NCBI GenBank assembly: GCA_030614005.1 | Contig: JAUWKS010000023.1 | Span: 1 to 32,000, forward strand | From: Candidatus Heimdallarchaeota archaeon | GTDB lineage: Archaea; Asgardarchaeota; Heimdallarchaeia; JABLTI01 | Length of the DNA: 32,000 nucleotides | Reading direction: 5' to 3' | Shown here: positions 10,331 through 24,351 of the stretch, piece after piece | Position numbering within the stretch: the stretch's first letter is position 1 | Layout of the letters: the number at the start of each line of letters is the position of its first letter | Program-made: the position numbers and the translations under genes | The notes under the pieces: model-generated | Database searches by the model: none | What the model saw: the letters and a program-made list of their open reading frames with translations, nothing else | Told to the model about the DNA's origin: nothing

Positions 10331-10562
10331 TGCATTCTCTCTTCTATGACACTCTTTATTACATTTTTTTAAGTGTTAATTCTCTTAATAAATCTACTAA
10401 TATATAAAATTAAATGTTTCTATTATATTAAATGCATAAATAAAGGAACATTTCAAGAACTTCTCACTTGATAATATACAAGCTCAAGTCAAAATATAAT
10501 CCAATTTCCTTTTAGATGATTATCTTAGTTATAAATAAGGCAACAAATTGGAGCTCAATAAA

Positions 10563-12224
10563 ATGTCTAACCCAGAAGATAATTTAGAAATTGACAATTC
10601 TAAAGAAAAATCTTCTCAAAACGAAAATAAAGACATTCTCATTTTGGAATCGGAAGAAAAGGGTGTAAGGATTTTTTTTAAAAAAACCTGGTTCTGGCTG
10701 AAAGAAAGTAAACAAAAAACCTTTTCTCTTGTATTTCTCTTGTTATTTATTGCATTTATGATTTTCTTGGGAGTATTCGAAAATGATCCAACTTCATTAA
10801 TGCTCGAGCTAGTTTATTGGTTTCAAGATAAAACAGGAGATATAGGGTTATACATTGGTGTAGGAGTTATCTCAATTTTTGGTAATTTTGTTATGTTTAT
10901 ACCAGTGTTCTATGCAGCTGTTATAATGTTTGTAGCAGTGATACCTGGGATAAATGTTTTTTTCCTTGGAATAGCAGCAGGAATTGGTGCTTCCATAGGA
11001 CAAATAGCTTCCTGGTTTGTAGGGAGAGCTACTCGAGAAGTAGCTGGAGATAAACTAGAAAAACAACTAAGAAAAACGCAAAGATGGGTTGAAAGAGGCT
11101 TGGCTCCAATAATGATTTTTATTTTTGCTGCAACTCCACTTCCGGATGAAGTATTGCTAATAATGATTGGCCTAATTGGTTATTCACTCGGAAAAACATT
11201 GATTTACTGTTTTATTGGAAAAATAGTTTTAACATTGAGTATATCTGTCGTTGCTAATCTTTTTAGTACAACTGCTGTGGGTGAATGGTTTCTTGAAACA
11301 CTTTTCGGTCTCACAAGAACAATGTTAATTGAGCAAGAATTGCCTGCTGGAAATAATATTTGGACGTCTATTGCAATTTGGATTATAGCTGCAACATTGG
11401 TTGTTGCAGTGACATTTGTTGATTGGGTGGATATATATGATAACTTTTTATGTAAAAAAGAGGAGAGACAGCTAAAACAAATTTTTGAAGTAGCTAAAGC
11501 ATCTTATAAATTGGATGATTCAGCAATTGTGCTCAATCACAAAGATAGGGCAATTTCAATACAACTATTAGAAGAACAAAAGCAAGAACATTTCCCGGAA
11601 GAGTCTCTTTGGTTCTTTCAAGAAAAATTATCAAAAAAGAAAGAAGTATTCTTTCGTAAAAGCCTCATAGCAATTGATACTATTGCAAATACAACAGTTG
11701 ATATTATTTTAAATAAAGAATGGTTAGAAAATTTCAGAGCGAATATTCAAGGCTTAAAATTTAAATCTTTGAAAAACAGATCAACGGAGCTCATTAAATT
11801 CCCACAAAAAGTGCTGGATATTGGGTTTATCGTATCAGAAAGTAGATTGATCGAGTTTCAAATTAAATTAAAGCACATTCTCCCTGAAGAAAATATGACA
11901 GATTTGTTGGATAAATCTAATTTTAAGAAACGAGAGAAACGACAATTAATGCGAGCAAAAGTCAATGTAGAAGTCTTAATTGAAACTTTATCTAGCAATG
12001 AAACAAAAGTTTGGGCGATTGGTTTAAAAGAAGGGACCCATATCAATAAAATCTACAAATTTAGAAAAGTAGAATCAATATTCTATTGGTTACAATTATT
12101 AAATTGTTTAAGCGATCAGCCAAGTAAAGTGAAAGGGTTATTAATTTTAAATTTGATTGATACATCAGGTGAAGATATCGAAATTACTACTCCAAAAGAT
12201 ATCTTAAATAATTGTCCGATTTGA
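10563..12224 (+). CDS. DedA/VTT (SNARE-associated) family membrane protein with long soluble C-terminal extension
   Basis: Multiple TM segments, GIGASIGQIASWFVGR, FIFAATPLPDEV and FIGK motifs. ATG 10563 follows GGAG; the track uses TTG 10548. Confidence 0.85.
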   Translation: MSNPEDNLEIDNSKEKSSQNENKDILILESEEKGVRIFFKKTWFWLKESKQKTFSLVFLLLFIAFMIFLGVFENDPTSLMLELVYWFQDKTGDIGLYIGVGVISIFGNFVMFIPVFYAAVIMFVAVIPGINVFFLGIAAGIGASIGQIASWFVGRATREVAGDKLEKQLRKTQRWVERGLAPIMIFIFAATPLPDEVLLIMIGLIGYSLGKTLIYCFIGKIVLTLSISVVANLFSTTAVGEWFLETLFGLTRTMLIEQELPAGNNIWTSIAIWIIAATLVVAVTFVDWVDIYDNFLCKKEERQLKQIFEVAKASYKLDDSAIVLNHKDRAISIQLLEEQKQEHFPEESLWFFQEKLSKKKEVFFRKSLIAIDTIANTTVDIILNKEWLENFRANIQGLKFKSLKNRSTELIKFPQKVLDIGFIVSESRLIEFQIKLKHILPEENMTDLLDKSNFKKREKRQLMRAKVNVEVLIETLSSNETKVWAIGLKEGTHINKIYKFRKVESIFYWLQLLNCLSDQPSKVKGLLILNLIDTSGEDIEITTPKDILNNCPI

Positions 12225-16730: not shown

Positions 16731-19679
16731 ATGAAGAAAGGAACTATTCTAGGTTTAAGTCTTCTATCATTATTCATTTTATCCGCTGCTGGACCATCAT
16801 TAATAGCTAATATTGATGTATCTGCTTTTAGTACTATAGAGCCATCTTTGTATACTAAAGAAGTAATTGATAATAATGGAGATAAAATAGATGACAAATT
16901 GTTGAGTTCTACGGTTTTTACCAATGGATACTCAGATGAGATTGCTATCAAATTTAATCATAACATTGATTCTCTTGATTTGCAAAAACTGAATAATCTT
17001 GGTGCAATTTGCTCCAACGAGATTTGGGATGCAGGGACAAGAATAAGAATCACTGCAACAGAAGACTCACTTACTCAAATTGCAGAATTGGATGATGTTA
17101 CATTTATCACAACAGCAGAAATAAGACTTATTATGGTTGCTATTGTGGGAACTGATTTCTCAGACTTGACAGCATTATTAACTTATGAAAACAGTGAGAT
17201 ATTCTGGGAAACAGGTTGTGCCTTAGTGCCTTATTATTCTGGTGTTGAAAATGATATCAAAAGTCTTGGTGCCTATACAGCAATAGCTGATACAACAGAC
17301 ATTTACTATACATTAGATACTATTGAAAATGATGCTGACTATTCTTTTTCTCCTGATACTTTAACAAATGCAAACACAATCAATGCAACTCAATTAGTTT
17401 CAGCTGGGTTTGATGGAGGCGGAGTAAAGGTTGGAATTCTTGATACCGGTATCCGATCAAGTCATGTTGATTTAATTGGTAGAGTTGGTAAAAAACAAAG
17501 TTTCGTTTTAACAACTTATGGATATGATTATTCTGATACATCCAATGATGATTTTGTAGGACATGGAACCCATGTTGCTGGTATAGTTGGTGGAGATGGA
17601 ACAGGTAATTCTCAAAGAATAGGTATTGCTCCTTCAGTAACATTTTATGCAGCAAAAATTGGTGATCATCAAGAAGATGGTGCACCCGCAACACTCGCTT
17701 CAATGGTTGCTGGTGCAAACTGGCTTGCTGCACAAGGTGCTGATGTTATCAATATGAGTTTTGGAGCAGGTGGAGAACCAAACGTCAATATTCTAGAAGC
17801 TGCTATTGCAAATGTCGTTAATAATAAAGGTATCAAATTTGTTCATTCAAATGGCAACGAAGGAGAAAATGGTGTTTATTCCACAGATTCCCCAACTGCA
17901 GCTATTTCTGTAGGTGCAGCAGATGACTCTTCGTTCCCCTTAGATATGGCTTATTTCTCATCTCAAGGTCCAAATGCTGACAATACAATGAAACCAGATT
18001 TAATTGCCCCTGGTTATGATATTTTATCTTGCAGTCATCTTTCAGATAGTAGTTATGTTTTAAAAAGTGGAACTTCTATGTCCGCGCCACAAATTGCTGG
18101 TGCAGCTGCTTTATTGGTTGATGTCTGTAAAACAGAAGGTATCTCATACAATCCTGGAGCAATTAAAAGTGCTTTGATGAGTACATCCGATCCATTACCA
18201 TCATCTACATTTGATTACCTAATTCAGGGTAGAGGTATGGCTAATGTTGGTGCTGCAGCAACTTTGTTAATAAATGCTGACCAAGAAGGCACTCTCCCAA
18301 TCATTGGTGCTTTAAATCCACTTATGAATCCAGTTTCAATTTATGCTGAATTGCTTCAAGGTCAAGTGATTGAACAATTTGTAACTTGTGTATCTCCTTT
18401 TAGAGATGACAATTTAACATTGGAAGTCACAGGTGATGCCGCAGATTTATTAGTATTAGACGAAGTTACTAATTTCTATTCAGCAACTGCAAGAGTAACC
18501 TATACGATTCCGGTAGAAACTGCACCTGGTACATACGAAGGAGAATTTACTTTCAAATACAAAGGTACCGTATTGGATATTGTTGATATTGAAATTACTG
18601 TTGTTCCAAGTCATGGTGAACATAGAATGCTTCTAAATTATCGAACTACCGACTGGATGATCGATCACATGTATGGTCAATATAAACACTTTACCGCTGA
18701 TTTAATAGCAAGAGGATGGGTTATCAGTGAACAAAGTGTTGTCCTTACTGCTGATATACTAAGTGATTATGAAGCAGTCTGGTTCCCAGATCCATTCAGC
18801 ATTCGTTTTAATGATGCAATGGTAAGTTCTACCTATAATCCTCTATCTACAGCTGAATTAACAGTATTAGATAATTTTGTAACTGCTGGTGGAAGTGTTT
18901 TCATTGATTTCAATGGAAATGCCTATGATGAAGAAAACTCAGTAATTTATGGAACAAATGTAACTCACGTCAATGAATTTACAGAAAATTATGGTATACA
19001 TGTTAGAGATGATATTTGGGGTTCACCTTCAACAATCATTGTAAACCCAGTAGGCAGTCATGCTCTCACTGCTGGAGTTACAGGGGTAGATCATTATGGA
19101 TGTACTTTAGAAACATCTGGTGATGCTGTTCAAGTCACTGAAATTTCTGCTGGATCACAGTATTCCACTCTTGCATATTACCAAGCTTCTTCTGGTGGTA
19201 GAGTAATTGTTATGTCAACAAACTTCGCACTAGATACAGATGGTTATAAAAACAAATACAGTGGAAGTGGTACACAGAACGATATTTTCGGTCGAAATCT
19301 TGTCCGATGGGCAACAGCAGAACATCGAATTAAACAATACAATTACACTTTCACTGCTGGAACAATGAACATGACTTACGAATACATAGGCGGTCCTGGT
19401 GCAGACTTTGGTGGATATGTTATCACACCTGATGAAACCCGTCACAACCTTACTTGGGTAGAATTATCCAGTGGTATGTGGTCATTCACTTATAATTGTG
19501 AAACCCTTGGTACCTATCATTTCTATCCTGAATGTGGAGAAACTGGTGTTGACGAATTTGATTACCTACTCTTTGAGTGCATTGAAACGTTTAAGAGTGG
19601 ATTTACACCAATAATTCTAATTTCAATTAGTATTTTAGGATTAGCCGGTAGTTATCTCATTTCAAGACGAAAGAAGTAA
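16731..19679 (+). CDS. Secreted, C-terminally membrane-anchored S8 subtilase with Ig-like and GATase-like C-terminal domains
   Basis: Signal peptide; catalytic D238 (ILDTG, 17442), H278 (HGTHVAG, 17562) and S449 (GTSMSAP, 18075); oxyanion NGNEG; C-terminal TM followed by RRKK. Confidence 0.95.
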   Translation: MKKGTILGLSLLSLFILSAAGPSLIANIDVSAFSTIEPSLYTKEVIDNNGDKIDDKLLSSTVFTNGYSDEIAIKFNHNIDSLDLQKLNNLGAICSNEIWDAGTRIRITATEDSLTQIAELDDVTFITTAEIRLIMVAIVGTDFSDLTALLTYENSEIFWETGCALVPYYSGVENDIKSLGAYTAIADTTDIYYTLDTIENDADYSFSPDTLTNANTINATQLVSAGFDGGGVKVGILDTGIRSSHVDLIGRVGKKQSFVLTTYGYDYSDTSNDDFVGHGTHVAGIVGGDGTGNSQRIGIAPSVTFYAAKIGDHQEDGAPATLASMVAGANWLAAQGADVINMSFGAGGEPNVNILEAAIANVVNNKGIKFVHSNGNEGENGVYSTDSPTAAISVGAADDSSFPLDMAYFSSQGPNADNTMKPDLIAPGYDILSCSHLSDSSYVLKSGTSMSAPQIAGAAALLVDVCKTEGISYNPGAIKSALMSTSDPLPSSTFDYLIQGRGMANVGAAATLLINADQEGTLPIIGALNPLMNPVSIYAELLQGQVIEQFVTCVSPFRDDNLTLEVTGDAADLLVLDEVTNFYSATARVTYTIPVETAPGTYEGEFTFKYKGTVLDIVDIEITVVPSHGEHRMLLNYRTTDWMIDHMYGQYKHFTADLIARGWVISEQSVVLTADILSDYEAVWFPDPFSIRFNDAMVSSTYNPLSTAELTVLDNFVTAGGSVFIDFNGNAYDEENSVIYGTNVTHVNEFTENYGIHVRDDIWGSPSTIIVNPVGSHALTAGVTGVDHYGCTLETSGDAVQVTEISAGSQYSTLAYYQASSGGRVIVMSTNFALDTDGYKNKYSGSGTQNDIFGRNLVRWATAEHRIKQYNYTFTAGTMNMTYEYIGGPGADFGGYVITPDETRHNLTWVELSSGMWSFTYNCETLGTYHFYPECGETGVDEFDYLLFECIETFKSGFTPIILISISILGLAGSYLISRRKK

Positions 19680-19870: not shown

Positions 19871-20254
19871 ATGAATGATGGAGATACCAAGTTGACATTT
19901 GAATCAGAAGCTGCAAGATTACAGAATGATGGTGTAGTAGGAGCGCTCGCTTTAGTAGGGGCTGATGGTGCTGTCCATTGGCAAACACAGAATTGGCAAG
20001 TAGATGGACCATCCATGATTGATTCATGGACAAAAAAAGCGCCTTGGATTGTAATACAAGGAATAAAATATTCAACAATAGACATTACAAATAGTCGAAT
20101 GATTTGTACTAACACCCAACAGCAAGGACATATAGTTATTGCAAAAACTCCATTCTGGCAAGGTTTCGTGATGGCGTGGTGTTCACCTGCTCATCAAGTT
20201 AGATCTGCCTACGTTGATATTGCTCGTTTAGCATCTGAAGTGAAACCTGGTTAA
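19871..20254 (+). CDS. Asgard-type profilin
   Basis: 127 aa. ALVGADGAVHWQTQNWQVDG...WIVIQGIKYS...RMICTNTQQQGHIV...AYVDIARLA matches the Asgard profilin pattern. Confidence 0.88.
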   Translation: MNDGDTKLTFESEAARLQNDGVVGALALVGADGAVHWQTQNWQVDGPSMIDSWTKKAPWIVIQGIKYSTIDITNSRMICTNTQQQGHIVIAKTPFWQGFVMAWCSPAHQVRSAYVDIARLASEVKPG

Positions 20255-20320: not shown

Positions 20321-23300
20321 TTAATTATCTTGTCCAAAAATATTTGGATTTGAGAATATTTCTGTGGCGGTAATATATACAGTTCCTTTCTCTACTACTT
20401 GGATTCTCGAAAGATCAATACCTGTAACAATCATTTTTGAAAGATAATGCCCGTATTCTGCTAATGTTTGTATTTTTCTTCCTACAACGAGTGTTTTCAA
20501 AATATTATGTGGACATAATGAATCTCGTAACTCTACTCCAATGCTTCCGATTACTGAGTCTGAAATATCTGTCATAATTTGTTTTTCCACAGTTGCATTT
20601 GTGAAAAGTCCAACCATTTCTCGAGATAATTTTTCAGAGATGAGAAGAACAGGTTTATCTGATAATGAAATTCCCAAACAGGTTCCCAAATGTCGACCAT
20701 TTGTTGTTCGTACACGTAAGCATTCAATTGGAATTACTTCAGAAGGATGGAAAACTCGTGCTGAATTTTTCAAAGTAACTTTGTTTCTCTTGATACTATT
20801 GATGGATCCACCTGAAATAAATACTCTATAAGAGTTGAGAATTTCATGGGGAAGTATCGGAAAACCTCTTTGTAATGAATAGTTAATCAATGTCTTTGGT
20901 TTGAGAGCTTCGCCTTCTGGAAGGCGCAACTGCTTAGCAATGAGATATTTCAATAACCAAAGTCGTTCTGTTGGATCATCTTCAGAGATATTTAATCTCT
21001 GAACTAAATAATTGACAATTGATTTATCTGGTTGCTTTGTATCTACTAGAAAAATTTTCCCCATAAGTGGATGTTTCACTGAAGCAATGATTGTACCAAA
21101 TGAAATTCCATGATGAAATAGACAATTTTTACCTATCGGATTATTATCTTCATCATCGAAATCTTTAGCTAACCATGGAGCAGTTCTGTATGGTTTTTGT
21201 GGTAAAATCTCGTCTAAATTACAAATAATTGATCCTCTTTTTATTCTTATCTTATTGATTGGTACTAAGCCGAGAATTTCTGGCTTTCCAATTTTATCAG
21301 AGCTAGGGTAACTGATATTTCTAAAATTAGCGAATTCTTGTAACTTTGAAATGTGTAAAGCTACATCTCTTTCTATCTGTAATGAATCAACTACTTCCTG
21401 AATAACAAAGATTTTTCGTTTTGTCGCTGATTCCAATAGCTCTTCCGTAACCCAAAGTGGTTTGATTTGATCAAATATTTTATCAATAATTACTTGATCT
21501 CCAATAGGCTCTGTTACCAATGTATACCCGAGTTTATTTTTATCATAAACAACTGCTTCTTGTAAGTAACCATAAAATTCGCGTGAACCATCATCTTTTA
21601 GATTAAATAGAGCTTTCCCTGTTAATTTCCATGCTTCAGTAGCTGCTTCCAATAATTTTTCTGAAATCATAGACGTTTTTTGTGGTTTTACCAGATTTTC
21701 TTCGATAATTTGGCGAGAAGGACTTTTTACTTCTCCAGTTTCTTGTGGAGTTTGTATTGGTGGTGAAGCTTCCTCTACTGAAGAAGCAGTTAAGGGCGTG
21801 GAACTTACATCTACATCCGGAATTGATGGTATCTCTGCAATAGCATCTATAGGTTTACTTGCTGGAATTTCTGTCTCAGTGGTTTCTATTGCATCTAATT
21901 CATCTGGTTGCAAAGCATTGATTTCTTTTACTTCAGTTATTTCACCAAATGTTTCACCTATTTCTTGAGCTTCAATAATGCGTTCAGAATCAATTTTTGC
22001 AGGTTTTGTAATATCAGAAGTTTTTCGTTTTTCTACTTCCTCTGCTAAACTTGAGAAGGTTACTTTTGTTATTACTTGTTTGCTTTGTGTTTTTTGCACT
22101 TCTTTTGGTTTTGGTAGTTCTTCAACTTCCTTAACTTCCTTTGAATCCAAAAGTTTAGTTAGAAATTCTTCAAAAGAGTTGAGAATAACTTTTTCGGTTA
22201 ACTCGTTCATCCTTTTTGGTGAACCTTTAATATTATATTGTAAATTAAAATCTTCCATACCAACAATTTCTAAATCAATATCAGGAGTAATTGTTAATTG
22301 AGGTGTTTGAGGTATGCGTAATTTTGCATCTATTTCTTCCGATTCAAAAGGTATTTCATCTTCTTCACTAGTATCTTCAATATCTAATGTATCAATTAAA
22401 AAGAAAGTATTTTCAAACTTTTCTTCCTCAATTGACAAAGTTTCAATGAGTGGATCAGTTGCTATTTCAGAAGCTGCAATTTTGCTTTCATCTGCCGAAT
22501 GAGATGAATGGGCACTTGCACTAGAATCAACTTCAATCCCAAATTGATCTTCAACAAATAATTCGTGTGATTCATCCATTTTTAAATGGTCTTTATCTAA
22601 ACGACATAAACAATTATTGTAATTTTTAATATCCTTAGTTAATAATTTAATATAATCAAGAAGCTCATTTATTGTTTGTTGAAATTCGCGTAACTTTTTG
22701 AAATCAGGAAGAGAACCGATTTTTGATGAGGAACGAATTTCTAATTGAGTTGCTTTAAGTGTTGCAAGTAACTCTGCTAAGGCATCACGATATTTATTTC
22801 TTAAATTAATTTCTTTCTTTAAATCTGTAGAGATAGTTGATAATTCAGCATCGTTTGCAACACCATGACCATAAGAGAACTGCAAGAAGTTTTGCAAAGT
22901 AAATTTAAGTAGATAACCTTTTGATGGATTTCGTTTCAGATATTTCTCTCGAGCACCAAACCGATTTCTGGCTAATCTGAGATCATATTCTAATGTTTCT
23001 AGTTTTCTGGCAGCCGAATCTTGATTTACTTTTTTCTCAGCTAATAAAATTTTTATTTTGTGCATATCATGCTCTAATTTCTTAACATTCCTCTCTAATT
23101 CACTAATTTCTCTACGAATTTTAAGATGTCTAAAGAATGTTCGAGGAACTTTATAGTTGGGTATTAAGTCTTCAATTGATATTTTGCCAATTAAACTATT
23201 AGCACTCAGAGGGATTTCCTTTGTATCTATTGCTTCTCGTAATTCTTCGTCTGTTAGTGCAGTTGCTTGTTGAAATTGTTGTTCTAATACTTGTATTTTA

Positions 23301-23398
23301 GTTTCGAAAACTTCAGAATCAATTTTCTCAAGAGCGTATTGCTTTTCGATTTCCATTATATCTTTAAGAATTTTAATCCTGGAGTTCATATGTTTCAT
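20321..23398 (-). CDS. Large protein: N-terminal coiled coil, acidic low-complexity linker, three tandem PRC-barrel-like repeats; start uncertain (ATG 23398/23389; track TTG 23509)
   Basis: Long ORF with heptad-rich N-terminus. Repeats begin LTGKALF...YGYLQE, PIGKNCLF..GISFGTI and ECLRVRTTNGRHLGTC, and end VPINKIRIK, ISGGSINSIK and IDLSRIQVVE. Confidence 0.85.
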   Translation of the reverse strand: MKHMNSRIKILKDIMEIEKQYALEKIDSEVFETKIQVLEQQFQQATALTDEELREAIDTKEIPLSANSLIGKISIEDLIPNYKVPRTFFRHLKIRREISELERNVKKLEHDMHKIKILLAEKKVNQDSAARKLETLEYDLRLARNRFGAREKYLKRNPSKGYLLKFTLQNFLQFSYGHGVANDAELSTISTDLKKEINLRNKYRDALAELLATLKATQLEIRSSSKIGSLPDFKKLREFQQTINELLDYIKLLTKDIKNYNNCLCRLDKDHLKMDESHELFVEDQFGIEVDSSASAHSSHSADESKIAASEIATDPLIETLSIEEEKFENTFFLIDTLDIEDTSEEDEIPFESEEIDAKLRIPQTPQLTITPDIDLEIVGMEDFNLQYNIKGSPKRMNELTEKVILNSFEEFLTKLLDSKEVKEVEELPKPKEVQKTQSKQVITKVTFSSLAEEVEKRKTSDITKPAKIDSERIIEAQEIGETFGEITEVKEINALQPDELDAIETTETEIPASKPIDAIAEIPSIPDVDVSSTPLTASSVEEASPPIQTPQETGEVKSPSRQIIEENLVKPQKTSMISEKLLEAATEAWKLTGKALFNLKDDGSREFYGYLQEAVVYDKNKLGYTLVTEPIGDQVIIDKIFDQIKPLWVTEELLESATKRKIFVIQEVVDSLQIERDVALHISKLQEFANFRNISYPSSDKIGKPEILGLVPINKIRIKRGSIICNLDEILPQKPYRTAPWLAKDFDDEDNNPIGKNCLFHHGISFGTIIASVKHPLMGKIFLVDTKQPDKSIVNYLVQRLNISEDDPTERLWLLKYLIAKQLRLPEGEALKPKTLINYSLQRGFPILPHEILNSYRVFISGGSINSIKRNKVTLKNSARVFHPSEVIPIECLRVRTTNGRHLGTCLGISLSDKPVLLISEKLSREMVGLFTNATVEKQIMTDISDSVIGSIGVELRDSLCPHNILKTLVVGRKIQTLAEYGHYLSKMIVTGIDLSRIQVVEKGTVYITATEIFSNPNIFGQDN

Positions 23399-23586
23399 TT
23401 CCCAGTGTCTTTTATTATTATTATTATCTTGTTCTTTATGCTTTAATAAATCTAACATATTGAATTTAATGTTCACAGCATATTTACTATTATATGAGTC
23501 TTTCAGCAAGCTCAGAAAATAATTAAATAAGATAAAGGTTTTTTAATATCCCATATTAATTTAGTAACTCTTTTGGTTTGAAAAAT

Positions 23587-24351
23587 ATGAGCTTCATTGA
23601 ATGGTACAATAATTATCAAGATTGGATAATGCTTGTGTGCATGATTGTTGTTTTAGTAGTTATCCTTGCTGTGTTCTATTTGTTAAGCAAAAAGGGAATG
23701 GATGTTTTTTTTACACGAAAAGGAGTTCACATTTCTGGAGGATGTTATTCCTTCTTTTGGCTTATGGCTTCTGATAATAGTTGGGCAAGATGGGTTGGTG
23801 CAATCTTACCATTTGTTACAGCAATCATTTTCTTGTTTATTGGGTTGAAAGTTATACCTGGTCGTTTTATGGTAGATAGCATGTCCCGAACAGGCGAGCC
23901 ATTTGATTTAATTAAAGGAACTCTATTTTATGCATTAGTAATGACTTTGCTTTGTATCTTTATTTGGAAAGATCAACCATGGGGTTTGATCATTATTATG
24001 ACCATTGCTTGGGGAGATGGTATAGCTCCAATAGCAGGTAGATATTTTGGAAAACATAAGTATCGCACTATTGGTGGAGTAGAAAAATCTCTAGAAGGGA
24101 GCATTGCTATGTTCATTTTTTCTGTAGCTTTCAGTTATCTCATTGTCTTTTTATTCGGTTTTGTTCATGGAGAGAATTGGTTATTTGGAGCAATTTATCC
24201 CTGGCTCTGGGGGAAAATACTCATACTAGCATTTGCTGCTACAATAGCAGAAGGTTTAAGCCCGACAGATTTTGATAATCTGACTGTTCCAATAGTTATG
24301 GTTTTAATTTCTTGGGCAATGGGACTTCAATGGTTAAATCCCTTATTATAA
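23587..24351 (+). CDS. CTP-dependent prenol kinase family (phytol/farnesol/dolichol kinase-like) membrane protein
   Basis: RKGVHISGG, AWGDGIAPIAGRYFGKHKY, KSLEGS and DFDNL. Confidence 0.9.
   Translation: MSFIEWYNNYQDWIMLVCMIVVLVVILAVFYLLSKKGMDVFFTRKGVHISGGCYSFFWLMASDNSWARWVGAILPFVTAIIFLFIGLKVIPGRFMVDSMSRTGEPFDLIKGTLFYALVMTLLCIFIWKDQPWGLIIIMTIAWGDGIAPIAGRYFGKHKYRTIGGVEKSLEGSIAMFIFSVAFSYLIVFLFGFVHGENWLFGAIYPWLWGKILILAFAATIAEGLSPTDFDNLTVPIVMVLISWAMGLQWLNPLL

What the first reader, a model, noticed from the sequence alone, without database searches (positions are those of the whole stretch)
22600..23398. CdvA-like coiled coil at the N-terminus: a permuted, giant CdvA-type division protein?
Two segments, KQYALEKIDSEVFETKIQVLE (~23345-23285) and KIKILLAEKKVNQDSAARKLETLE (~23060-22990), resemble the 'L..geIs.e.y....l' helix-turn-helix I recall from the CdvA coiled coil (and from SHOCT). 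Established: crenarchaeal CdvA is PRC-barrel + coiled coil and recruits ESCRT-III at midcell. Here the same two module types occur in reverse order, separated by a long acidic Pro/Glu linker (~22500-21640). Inference: a membrane-remodelling or division scaffold.
Basis: inference. Interest (0 to 1): 0.75.

Follow-up and report, generated by a model that had tools for sequence, protein, structure and literature searches.

The report
Profilin-linked hairpin and PRC-barrel scaffold
The flagged stretch is the helical front end of a roughly 1,020-residue Asgard-archaeal protein that shares building blocks with the division protein CdvA but is not shown to be a CdvA relative, and whose gene sits beside the actin regulator profilin across deeply diverged lineages.

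Summary
The two flagged segments are real. They lie at 23344-23282 and 23059-22988 on the minus strand, are conserved in 23 homologs, and sit at the turns of two predicted alpha-hairpins. The gene spans 20321-23389/23398 and has three parts:
- an N-terminal hairpin domain
- an acidic linker (pI 4.2)
- a C-terminal module of three PRC-barrel-like units, each split by a helical insert

Real CdvA proteins do carry the same "G-E-I...Y" turn motif twice, but the similarity is weak. Profile-profile P is 0.03 for this family and 0.002-0.003 for its wider relatives. It is also not specific to CdvA. Among 32 N-termini, 23 give sub-threshold GvpG hits, 2 give SHOCT hits and 1 gives a CdvA hit. No ESCRT, FtsZ or SepF gene is nearby.

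The one neighbour kept across deeply diverged relatives, despite three different flank sets and two orientations, is profilin, and this is the genome's only detectable copy. About two-thirds of the close homologs listed carry runs of four or more prolines ahead of the C-module, but the window protein has none.

Verdict: the module composition is right, the claim of a "CdvA-type division protein" is unsupported, and a profilin-linked scaffold is the best lead. This is a new variant of a known kind, of moderate to high interest.

The parts
20321..23389 (-). Whole gene. It encodes 1,022 aa from the ATG at 23389, or 1,025 aa from the ATG at 23398. The mechanical ORF from the TTG at 23509 is 1,062 aa, and residue numbers in this report follow that ORF (P0001).
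   Evidence: ORF list. The start was set by alignment with 22 homologs. An A/T-rich TATA-like stretch lies about 20 nt upstream.
22475..23389 (-). N-terminal all-helical domain, residues 41-345, with 69% mean column identity among 23 homologs.
   Evidence: Alignment A3. AlphaFold2 model: pLDDT 74.5, pTM 0.62, nine helices.
23267..23380 (-). It is a SHOCT/GvpG-like bihelical motif with its turn at E-K-I-D.
   Evidence: GvpG 23/32, SHOCT 2/32, CdvA 1/32, all sub-threshold. This is the best hhalign match to the first CdvA motif, P 0.033.
22931..23143 (-). It is a long alpha-hairpin with its turn at E-K-K-V-N.
   Evidence: Model pLDDT 85-94. It superposes on generic hairpins: CHMP4B Z 10.9 at rmsd 1.8 A over 74 residues, and also designed hairpins. 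The motif recurs in distant relatives.
21689..22474 (-). Acidic, poorly conserved linker, residues 346-607. It contains a conserved island at about residues 395-455 (window 22145-22327).
   Evidence: pI 4.17, net -37, D+E 23.7%, P 7.3%. The conservation pattern is shown. Runs of four or more prolines occur in 21 of the 32 close homologs listed, but not in this protein.
20324..21688 (-). C-terminal module, residues 608-1062, with 75% mean column identity. It is made of three PRC-barrel-like units, each interrupted by a helical insert.
   Evidence: Model pLDDT 77.7, pTM 0.71. Nine of the top 10 VIA rows are PRC barrels or known PRC-barrel proteins. CdpB1/B2 tops the Foldseek PDB list. PRC-barrel proteins dominate the AFDB and Atlas lists.
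21212..21646 (-). PRC-like unit 1, residues about 622-766. The barrel strands are 622-667 plus 742-766, and the helical insert is 670-739.
   Evidence: Secondary structure. CdvA PRC barrel 9s9g_A Z 5.5 on model residues 15-159.
20744..21166 (-). PRC-like unit 2, residues about 782-922. Its helical insert (828-894) holds the most conserved motif of the superfamily, W851...K859...E865-G-E-A-L869...P884..P887 (window 20840-20959).
   Evidence: RimM C-domain 7cq1 Z 7.7 at rmsd 2.5 A over 69 residues; MTH1859 Z 7.2. Conservation across 26 superfamily members.
20357..20740 (-). PRC-like unit 3, residues about 924-1051. A short tail follows, ending in a conserved N-I-F (20336-20344).
   Evidence: A. 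fulgidus PRC1/PRC2 (CdpB) 8onw_A Z 7.6; RimM 3h9n Z 6.9. hhalign pairs its first strand motif with the CdvA/PRC G-R-x-L-G motif, P 0.056. N1056 and F1058 are nearly invariant.
19871..20254 (+). Profilin gene, convergent on the large gene with a 66-nt T-rich gap. It is the conserved genomic partner of this protein family.
   Evidence: PF00235 E 2.8e-4. It is the only profilin-like match in the genome. Adjacency is conserved in five deeply diverged sublineages.

Best explanation
The flagged stretch is the N-terminal alpha-hairpin domain of one large cytoplasmic protein with no predicted membrane span. The protein has three parts:
- A 300-residue helical domain. Its first two hairpins carry the short bihelical turn motif also seen in SHOCT, GvpG and the CdvA coiled coil.
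- A 260-residue acidic, largely disordered linker with a few conserved islands.
- A compact C-terminal module of three PRC-barrel-like units, each split by a helical insert.

Shown: this architecture, its conservation, its restriction to a few Asgard lineages, and its persistent adjacency to profilin.

Inferred: it works as a multivalent scaffold.
- The hairpin domain would self-associate or sit at the inner face of the membrane, as proposed for SHOCT-like domains.
- The linker would act as a flexible spacer carrying short docking motifs. About two-thirds of close relatives have polyproline tracts there.
- The PRC module would dock a protein partner through the highly conserved W...EGEAL...P..P surface of its second insert.

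Because profilin is the only neighbour kept through deep divergence, the pathway served is more likely actin-cytoskeleton control than Cdv/ESCRT division.

It is not a demonstrable CdvA homolog. I put about 0.85 on the architecture and about 0.35-0.4 on the profilin/actin link.
For: Architecture:
- Alignments A1-A3.
- Models with pLDDT 77.7 and 74.5.
- Nine of the top 10 VIA rows for the C-module are PRC barrels or known PRC-barrel proteins: RimM Z 7.7, CdpB Z 7.6, MTH1859 Z 7.2, the RC-H subunit Z 6.1 and CdvA Z 5.5. Foldseek PDB, AFDB and Atlas agree.

Hairpin motif class:
- GvpG is hit by 23 of 32 N-termini, SHOCT by 2 and CdvA by 1.
- Three 'SHOCT domain-containing' AFDB clusters are among the top 22 fold hits.
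- PMC11237479 proposes that SHOCT-like bihelical domains assemble or anchor other domains at the membrane.

Profilin link:
- Adjacency holds in the window's own GTDB family and in families f32 and f33.
- It also holds on the contigs of P0035, P0036 and P0045.
- The flanks differ in three ways: thioredoxin/S8 peptidase, nitroreductase/DUF167-ligase, and DHNA/NUDIX.
- Both convergent and tandem orientations occur, the tandem ones with a gap of about 130 bp.
- On the C-module tree, all adjacent members fall on one side of a 96/97-supported branch, with subclades more than one substitution per site apart.
- The window's profilin is the only one detectable in a genome that is 90% complete.
- Runs of four or more prolines (1-5 per protein) lie 40-90 residues before the C-module in 21 of the 32 close homologs listed.
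- Heimdall profilin binds polyproline in vitro (PMC8410842).
Against: - The profilin link rests on gene order alone.
- Most pairs are convergent, so they cannot be co-transcribed.
- Adjacency maps to a single branch, which means one origin. It could be slowly decaying ancestral synteny.
- The other half of the superfamily lacks the adjacency. Group B has the context M24 peptidase | gene | DUF167, and family f6 also lacks it.
- The window protein and all distant relatives lack polyproline runs.
- PRC-fold Z scores are below 8, a range the tool flags as possibly just a common arrangement. The Pfam PRC model finds nothing in the window contig.
- The three units are not similar to each other by profile comparison (P 0.36-0.38).
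- Neither self-association nor membrane binding of the hairpin domain was tested.
Confidence: 0.45

Rival explanations
1. The protein is a circularly permuted, enlarged CdvA homolog that polymerises at the membrane and recruits ESCRT-III/Vps4 for division or membrane remodelling.
For: - It has the same two module types as CdvA.
- CdvA carries the same turn motif twice.
- hhalign pairs motif with motif. For the Heimdall family P is 0.033. For the wider family P is 0.002-0.003, collinear over 88 columns and above all shuffled controls.
- One distant relative, P0045, hits PF18822 at E 9e-4.
- The CdvA PRC barrel appears among the fold hits at Z 5.5.
- CdvA-like proteins fused to Glu-rich disordered regions exist in Bathyarchaeia (PMC11188069).
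- The genome encodes three Snf7 proteins.
Against: - There is no PF18822 hit on the window protein or its contig at E<=10.
- hhalign probability is 1.5-12%.
- The motif matches GvpG far more often than CdvA, 23 versus 1 of 32.
- The CdvA filament aligns to the N-model at rmsd 16 A.
- The domain order is reversed and there are three barrels.
- The C-terminal tail (N-I-F) is unlike the CdvA E3B strand.
- The Snf7 genes are on other contigs.
- The conserved neighbour is profilin.
- The family is absent from most Asgard genomes that have ESCRT, being found in 20 of 399.
Confidence: 0.05
2. The protein is a PRC-barrel component of the FtsZ/SepF division ring. It would be a fused, three-barrel counterpart of the small CdpB1/B2/B3 proteins, with the hairpin domain and linker tethering it to the membrane or ring.
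For: - CdpB1/CdpB2 (8qzo, 8onw) are the top Foldseek PDB hits, and Z 7.6 in VIA.
- PRC-barrel proteins are division-ring components in Haloferax (bioRxiv 10.1101/2023.03.28.534520, 10.1101/2023.03.28.534543).
- The genome has SepF and two FtsZ genes.
Against: - The genome already has small PRC-barrel proteins that fit CdpB better (126 and 123 aa).
- The family is confined to a few Asgard lineages, whereas FtsZ/SepF are widespread (PMC11188069).
- It has no division gene as a neighbour.
- RimM-type barrels match equally well.
Confidence: 0.15
3. The protein is a scaffold or adaptor with a role unrelated to both division and actin, for example in envelope, ribosome-related or stress-related assembly. 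On this reading the adjacency to profilin is a neutral relic of ancestral gene order.
For: - Adjacency has a single origin on the tree.
- It is mostly convergent.
- It is lost in group B, where a different neighbour (DUF167/YggU, 0-40 bp downstream, same strand) is conserved.
- PRC barrels and SHOCT-like hairpins are generic interaction modules with many roles (RimM, RC-H, YlmC).
Against: - The pair survives while every other neighbour changes, across branch lengths above one substitution per site, and through an inversion of the profilin gene.
- Polyproline tracts, a known ligand of Heimdall-type and eukaryotic profilins, appear in the linker of about two-thirds of close homologs.
Confidence: 0.3

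Closest known systems
CdvA (Pfam PF18822 coiled-coil domain plus an N-terminal PRC barrel; arCOG04054) of Thermoproteota
   Same: It has a PRC-type barrel and alpha-hairpins whose turns carry the G/x-E-I-x-x-x-x-Y/F/A motif. It also has an acidic or Pro-rich region, and in CdvA a filament-forming scaffold role is known.
   Different: The order is reversed, and there are three split barrels instead of one. The protein is about four times longer. There is no significant PF18822 match, no E3B-like C-terminal strand and no cdvB/cdvC neighbour. It occurs in Asgard lineages rather than in the TACK group.
SHOCT and SHOCT-like bihelical domains (PF09851), and the C-terminal motif of GvpG (PF05120)
   Same: It is a short helix-turn-helix with a conserved turn, found at protein termini fused to unrelated globular domains. 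The family's first hairpin gives its most frequent sub-threshold Pfam hits to these models.
   Different: All hits are below the gathering thresholds. Here the motif is embedded in a 300-residue helical domain and is repeated, rather than standing as a free terminal tag.
Archaeal PRC-barrel division proteins CdpB1/CdpB2 (PDB 8qzo, 8onw), and the RimM C-terminal PRC domain (7cq1, 3h9n, 2dyi)
   Same: These are the best structural matches for C-terminal units 2 and 3 (Z 6.8-7.7, rmsd 2.5-4.4 A over 64-69 residues).
   Different: Those are single small barrels without the 60-70-residue helical insert. There is no sequence-level PRC (PF05239) match here. Neither SepF binding nor ribosome binding has been shown.
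Eukaryotic FH1-bearing actin assembly factors (formins, Ena/VASP), as a functional analogy only
   Same: Most close homologs have a helical N-terminal region, then 1-5 polyproline tracts immediately before a conserved C-terminal module. The gene is linked to profilin.
   Different: There is no FH2, EVH1 or WH2 domain, and the C-module is beta-barrel based. The window protein itself has no polyproline run. No actin or profilin binding has been shown.

Membership tests
CdvA (PF18822 / arCOG04054) | A significant sequence-profile match to the CdvA coiled-coil model. | tested here: not met
   There is no PF18822 hit at E<=10 on the protein, its segments or the window contig. hhalign against 8 real CdvA gives probability 1.5%, P 0.033. 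Only 1 of 32 family N-termini hits PF18822, and that hit is sub-threshold.
CdvA (PF18822 / arCOG04054) | Domain order: a single N-terminal PRC barrel followed by the helical hairpin region. | tested here: not met
   Here the hairpins are N-terminal and three PRC-like units are C-terminal.
CdvA (PF18822 / arCOG04054) | A C-terminal E3B peptide that binds the winged helix of CdvB. | not tested
   The tail ends in a conserved N-I-F motif that is unlike the hydrophobic V-K-V strand at the end of the CdvA sequences I fetched. No binding test was run.
CdvA (PF18822 / arCOG04054) | Genomic linkage to ESCRT-III (cdvB) and Vps4 (cdvC). | tested here: not met
   The Snf7 genes lie on contigs C9 and C107, not on C57. 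The neighbours are profilin, an S8 peptidase, a thioredoxin and a membrane protein.
PRC-barrel superfamily (PF05239) | The PRC-type small beta-barrel fold. | tested here: met
   Nine of the top 10 of 48,161 chains are PRC barrels or known PRC-barrel proteins, at Z 5.3-7.7. AFDB lists PRC-barrel clusters at probability 0.93-0.97. The Atlas top rows are RimM/PRC families. Caveat: every Z is below 8 and the structure is a prediction.
PRC-barrel superfamily (PF05239) | A sequence match to the Pfam PRC model. | tested here: not met
   There is no hit at E<=10 on the C-terminal segments or on the window contig. The same search finds small PRC proteins elsewhere in the genome.
SHOCT / SHOCT-like bihelical domain (PF09851) | A short helix-turn-helix with a conserved turn motif at a protein terminus. 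| tested here: met
   The predicted hairpin is helices 4-19/25-41 of the N-model. The motif is conserved across the superfamily. SHOCT-named AFDB clusters are among the top fold hits.
SHOCT / SHOCT-like bihelical domain (PF09851) | A Pfam match above the gathering threshold. | tested here: not met
   SHOCT matches 2 of 32 members, best E 0.027 at 14.7 bits against a cut-off of 27. GvpG matches 23 of 32, best 22 bits against a cut-off of 30.6.
CdpB-type archaeal division PRC proteins | A small single-barrel protein that binds SepF or other CdpB proteins at the division ring. | not tested
   The size and architecture differ, with three split barrels in a 1,022-aa protein. The SepF interaction was not tested. 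The genome has separate small PRC proteins.
Formin (FH1-FH2) | An FH2 domain preceded by polyproline FH1 tracts. | tested here: not met
   There is no FH2 (PF02181) hit and the C-module is barrel-based. The window protein has no run of three or more prolines, whereas 21 of the 32 close homologs listed have runs of four or more.

The most novel reading that the evidence does not exclude
This family may be an Asgard-specific partner of profilin. On that reading it is a scaffold built from PRC barrels and SHOCT-like hairpins that recruits profilin or profilin-actin, through polyproline tracts or the conserved insert of its second barrel. It would then play the role that FH1-bearing factors such as formins and Ena/VASP play in eukaryotes. 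That would make it an independent archaeal solution to profilin-guided actin assembly, and a natural ligand for the polyproline-binding activity already measured for Heimdall profilin.
Probability: 0.15. Interest if true: 0.9.

Novelty: new variant of a known kind. Interest (0 to 1): 0.6.

Why it matters
Asgard archaea have actin, profilin and gelsolin, but no known factor that uses profilin-actin. It is also unclear what the polyproline-binding activity of Heimdall profilin is for. This uncharacterised protein family stays beside profilin through deep divergence, and most close members carry polyproline tracts. That makes it a concrete, testable candidate for the missing link.

The family also shows a PRC-barrel variant that I did not find described in the searches run: three tandem barrels, each split by a helical insert.

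A practical lesson follows for annotation. The CdvA-like turn motif is a generic SHOCT/GvpG-type hairpin, so it should not be used alone to call Cdv-type division proteins.

Tried and rejected
- **Sequence searches.** Pfam, NCBIfam and PDB searches of the whole protein found only coiled-coil noise (SMC E 8e-5, CENP-H E 0.31). PDB profile searches with A2 and A3 gave no hit at E<=10.
- **N-domain fold search.** Foldseek PDB found nothing below E 0.09. VIA found 284 chains at Z>=8, so the match is a generic hairpin and I rejected it as evidence for either an ESCRT-III or a CdvA relationship.
- **Protein Atlas by features.** The N-domain gave no usable hit.
- **Internal repeats.** Profile comparison of the three C-terminal units gave P 0.36-0.38, so the repeat is visible only in the fold.
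- **DUF2666.** It is the top AFDB hit (E 7e-5), but there is no Pfam-level support on the C-terminal segments. I did not pursue it.
- **Complex prediction.** I submitted N-domain plus first linker half (41-459), the C-module (608-1062) and profilin as the partner. Eight submissions failed because the machine was busy. The job then ran and returned no verdict (score 0.00). This counts neither for nor against binding. The polyproline-bearing part of the linker and the cognate pairs from polyproline-rich homologs were not included.
- **Earlier-scan look-ups.** Searches by relatives and by words returned nothing.
- **Literature.** Searches found no description of this family or of a neighbour of profilin.
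- **Promoter and terminator scan.** It uses a bacterial consensus and was not informative here.
Full report
**What is there.** The finding lies inside one long ORF on the minus strand, 20321-23509, giving 1,062 aa from a TTG.
- Alignment with 22 homologs puts the real start at M41, the ATG at 23389. The ATG at 23398, three codons upstream, is also possible. Residue numbers below follow the 1,062-aa ORF (P0001).
- The protein has three parts:
  - a conserved N-terminal region, 41-345, with 69% mean column identity
  - a variable acidic linker, 346-607, with pI 4.17, net charge -37, D+E 23.7% and P 7.3%
  - a strongly conserved C-terminal region, 608-1062, with 75% column identity
- Pfam, NCBIfam and PDB sequence searches give no meaningful hit.
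- All close homologs are hypothetical proteins of about 1,000 aa. Those that carry a source name are mostly from Heimdallarchaeota or Asgard metagenome bins.

**Folds.** The N-domain model (pLDDT 74.5) is all-helical, with hairpins at model residues 4-41 and 83-153 and two further long helices. Both flagged segments sit exactly at the hairpin turns.

The C-terminal model (pLDDT 77.7, pTM 0.71) shows three beta-barrel units, each interrupted by 60-70 residues of helix.
- In an all-against-all VIA search of 48,161 chains, nine of the top ten rows are PRC barrels or known PRC-barrel proteins:
  - RimM C-domain, Z 7.7
  - A. fulgidus PRC1/2 (CdpB), Z 7.6
  - MTH1859, Z 7.2
  - two further RimM structures, Z 6.9 and 6.8
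  - 3htr, Z 6.4
  - an RC-H subunit, Z 6.1
  - the S. islandicus CdvA filament, Z 5.5
  - CdpB1/B2, Z 5.3
- Foldseek against the PDB ranks CdpB1/B2 first.
- AFDB clusters and the ESM Atlas list mainly PRC-barrel and RimM families.
- All Z values are below 8, but the agreement across libraries makes the PRC-like assignment reasonable.
- The Pfam PRC model sees nothing here.
- The three units are not similar to each other by profile comparison.
- This agrees with earlier first-reader notes on the same gene.

**Testing the CdvA claim.** I obtained real CdvA sequences by locating Thermoproteota genomes with a 16S probe. I then searched them with PF18822, which hit at E 1e-30 to 1e-44, and aligned eight of them (A4). 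They do carry the recalled motif twice, for example S-G-E-I-P-E-K-A-Y-K.
The score is only 21.9, P 0.033, probability 1.5%.
- Reversed controls score 17, and 30 column shuffles reach 20.6.
- An exhaustive profile search with the C-module found 21 distant relatives of 480-814 aa. Their N-termini carry more canonical versions of both motifs.
- Their N-profile aligns with the CdvA coiled coil over 88 collinear columns, at score 27-29 and P 0.002-0.003. That is above all 60 column shuffles (maximum 14.5), all 60 seven-residue block shuffles (maximum 22.5) and the reversed controls at 17.5-18.7.
- So the motif-level likeness is real. It is not specific, however. Among the first 60 residues of 32 family members, GvpG is hit by 23, SHOCT by 2 and CdvA by 1, all below threshold. 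SHOCT-named clusters head the AFDB fold list for the N-domain.
- The N-domain aligns to the CdvA filament at rmsd 16 A. It is tied with 284 other chains at Z>=8, including ESCRT-III and designed hairpins.
- PF18822 finds nothing on the window contig.
The similarity goes beyond a generic coiled coil only in being a generic SHOCT/GvpG-type hairpin.

**Context and distribution.** The genome has SepF, two FtsZ genes, three Snf7 genes and small PRC proteins, all on other contigs.

In 399 Asgard genomes, the 1,000-aa form occurs only in the window's own GTDB family, in 10 of 11 genomes. Weaker relatives occur in one other family of the same class (6 of 22) and in two families of other classes (3 genomes).

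The unexpected result concerns the gene's convergent neighbour, profilin (PF00235). It is the only profilin detectable in this genome.
- Profilin remains adjacent in every group-A lineage examined:
  - four further contigs of the same family and genome G100
  - family f32, in convergent orientation
  - family f33, on the same strand with a gap of about 130 bp
  - the contigs of P0035, P0036 and P0045
- The other neighbours differ completely between these groups.
- On a tree of the C-module, all adjacent members fall on one side of a 96/97-supported branch, and its subclades are more than one substitution per site apart.
- The other side, group B, has the context M24 peptidase | gene | DUF167 and no profilin.
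- Among the 32 close homologs listed, 21 carry one to five runs of four or more prolines, 40-90 residues before the C-module. P0028 and P0029 have five tracts each.
- The window protein, its nearest relatives and all distant relatives have none.
- Heimdall LC3 profilin binds polyproline weakly in vitro, and no natural ligand is known (PMC8410842).

**Interpretation.** I read the protein as a multivalent scaffold, and these roles are inferred rather than shown.
- The SHOCT-like hairpin domain would serve for self-association or membrane-proximal assembly, the role proposed for such domains in PMC11237479.
- The acidic linker would carry short docking motifs.
- The triple PRC module would dock a partner. 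Its most conserved surface is the W851...E865-G-E-A-L...P884..P887 motif in the helical insert of unit 2.
- The profilin link is the only specific functional lead. It is based on gene order alone and has a single origin on the tree, so I give it about 0.35-0.4.
- A true CdvA-type, ESCRT-recruiting role gets about 0.05.
- A CdpB-like FtsZ/SepF role gets about 0.15.
- An unrelated scaffold whose profilin adjacency is a relic gets about 0.3.
- A complex prediction of the N- and C-domains against profilin returned no verdict, so it is not used as evidence.

**Novelty.** The folds are known and the family is unannotated. I found no description of the split triple-PRC architecture or of the persistent pairing with profilin in the searches I ran. 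I class it as a new variant of a known kind, with interest 0.6.

Noticed in passing
L153, L154, L160, L161 and the P0041 contig (relatives P0037, P0038, P0050, P0039, P0041): Group-B relatives (660-763 aa) have a different conserved context. A Peptidase_M24 gene lies upstream. A DUF167/YggU (PF02594) gene lies 0-40 bp downstream on the same strand, which looks like an operon. In G406 and L152, profilin sits between the large gene and DUF167.
   Followed up: partly
P0028 and P0029 (locus L003), residues about 497-590: There are five polyproline tracts of 4-7 prolines within about 90 residues, directly before the C-terminal module. The layout recalls a formin FH1 region. The window protein has lost or never had such tracts.
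   Followed up: partly
window 386-1543 (+): This 385-aa protein has a folliculin/DENN-type N-terminal match (PF11704, E 1.4e-6). It may be a eukaryote-like membrane-traffic regulator.
   Followed up: no
window 23578-24351 (+): This 257-aa multi-pass membrane protein has no Pfam hit. It is divergent from the large gene and syntenic in all same-family contigs examined. Its G-D-G...K-S-x-E-G-S pattern recalls CTP-dependent lipid kinases and cytidylyltransferases, but that is from memory and was not tested.
   Followed up: no
window 5277-6785 (-): This 502-aa ORF has no Pfam hit. The Pfam PRC model does not detect it in six frames. I did not fold it.
   Followed up: partly
L144 and L145 (Thermoproteota genome G010, contig C2): Two adjacent coiled-coil proteins (239 and 181 aa) give weak PF18822 hits (E 7e-4) and carry several G-x-I-x-x-x-x-Y turn motifs. 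One has a Cys-rich N-terminus. They probably correspond to the CdvA-related arCOG03733/03734 pair described in PMC11188069.
   Followed up: no
window 19871-20254 (+): Orthologous profilins start at M-T/S-F-E. The window gene therefore probably starts at the TTG near 19889, not at the annotated ATG at 19871, which adds seven residues.
   Followed up: partly
window 10548-12224 (+) and 16731-19679 (+): The first is a 558-aa protein with a VTT/DedA domain (PF09335). The second is a 982-aa S8 subtilase with a hydrophobic, membrane-anchor-like C-terminal tail. Both are conserved in the same-family synteny block.
   Followed up: no
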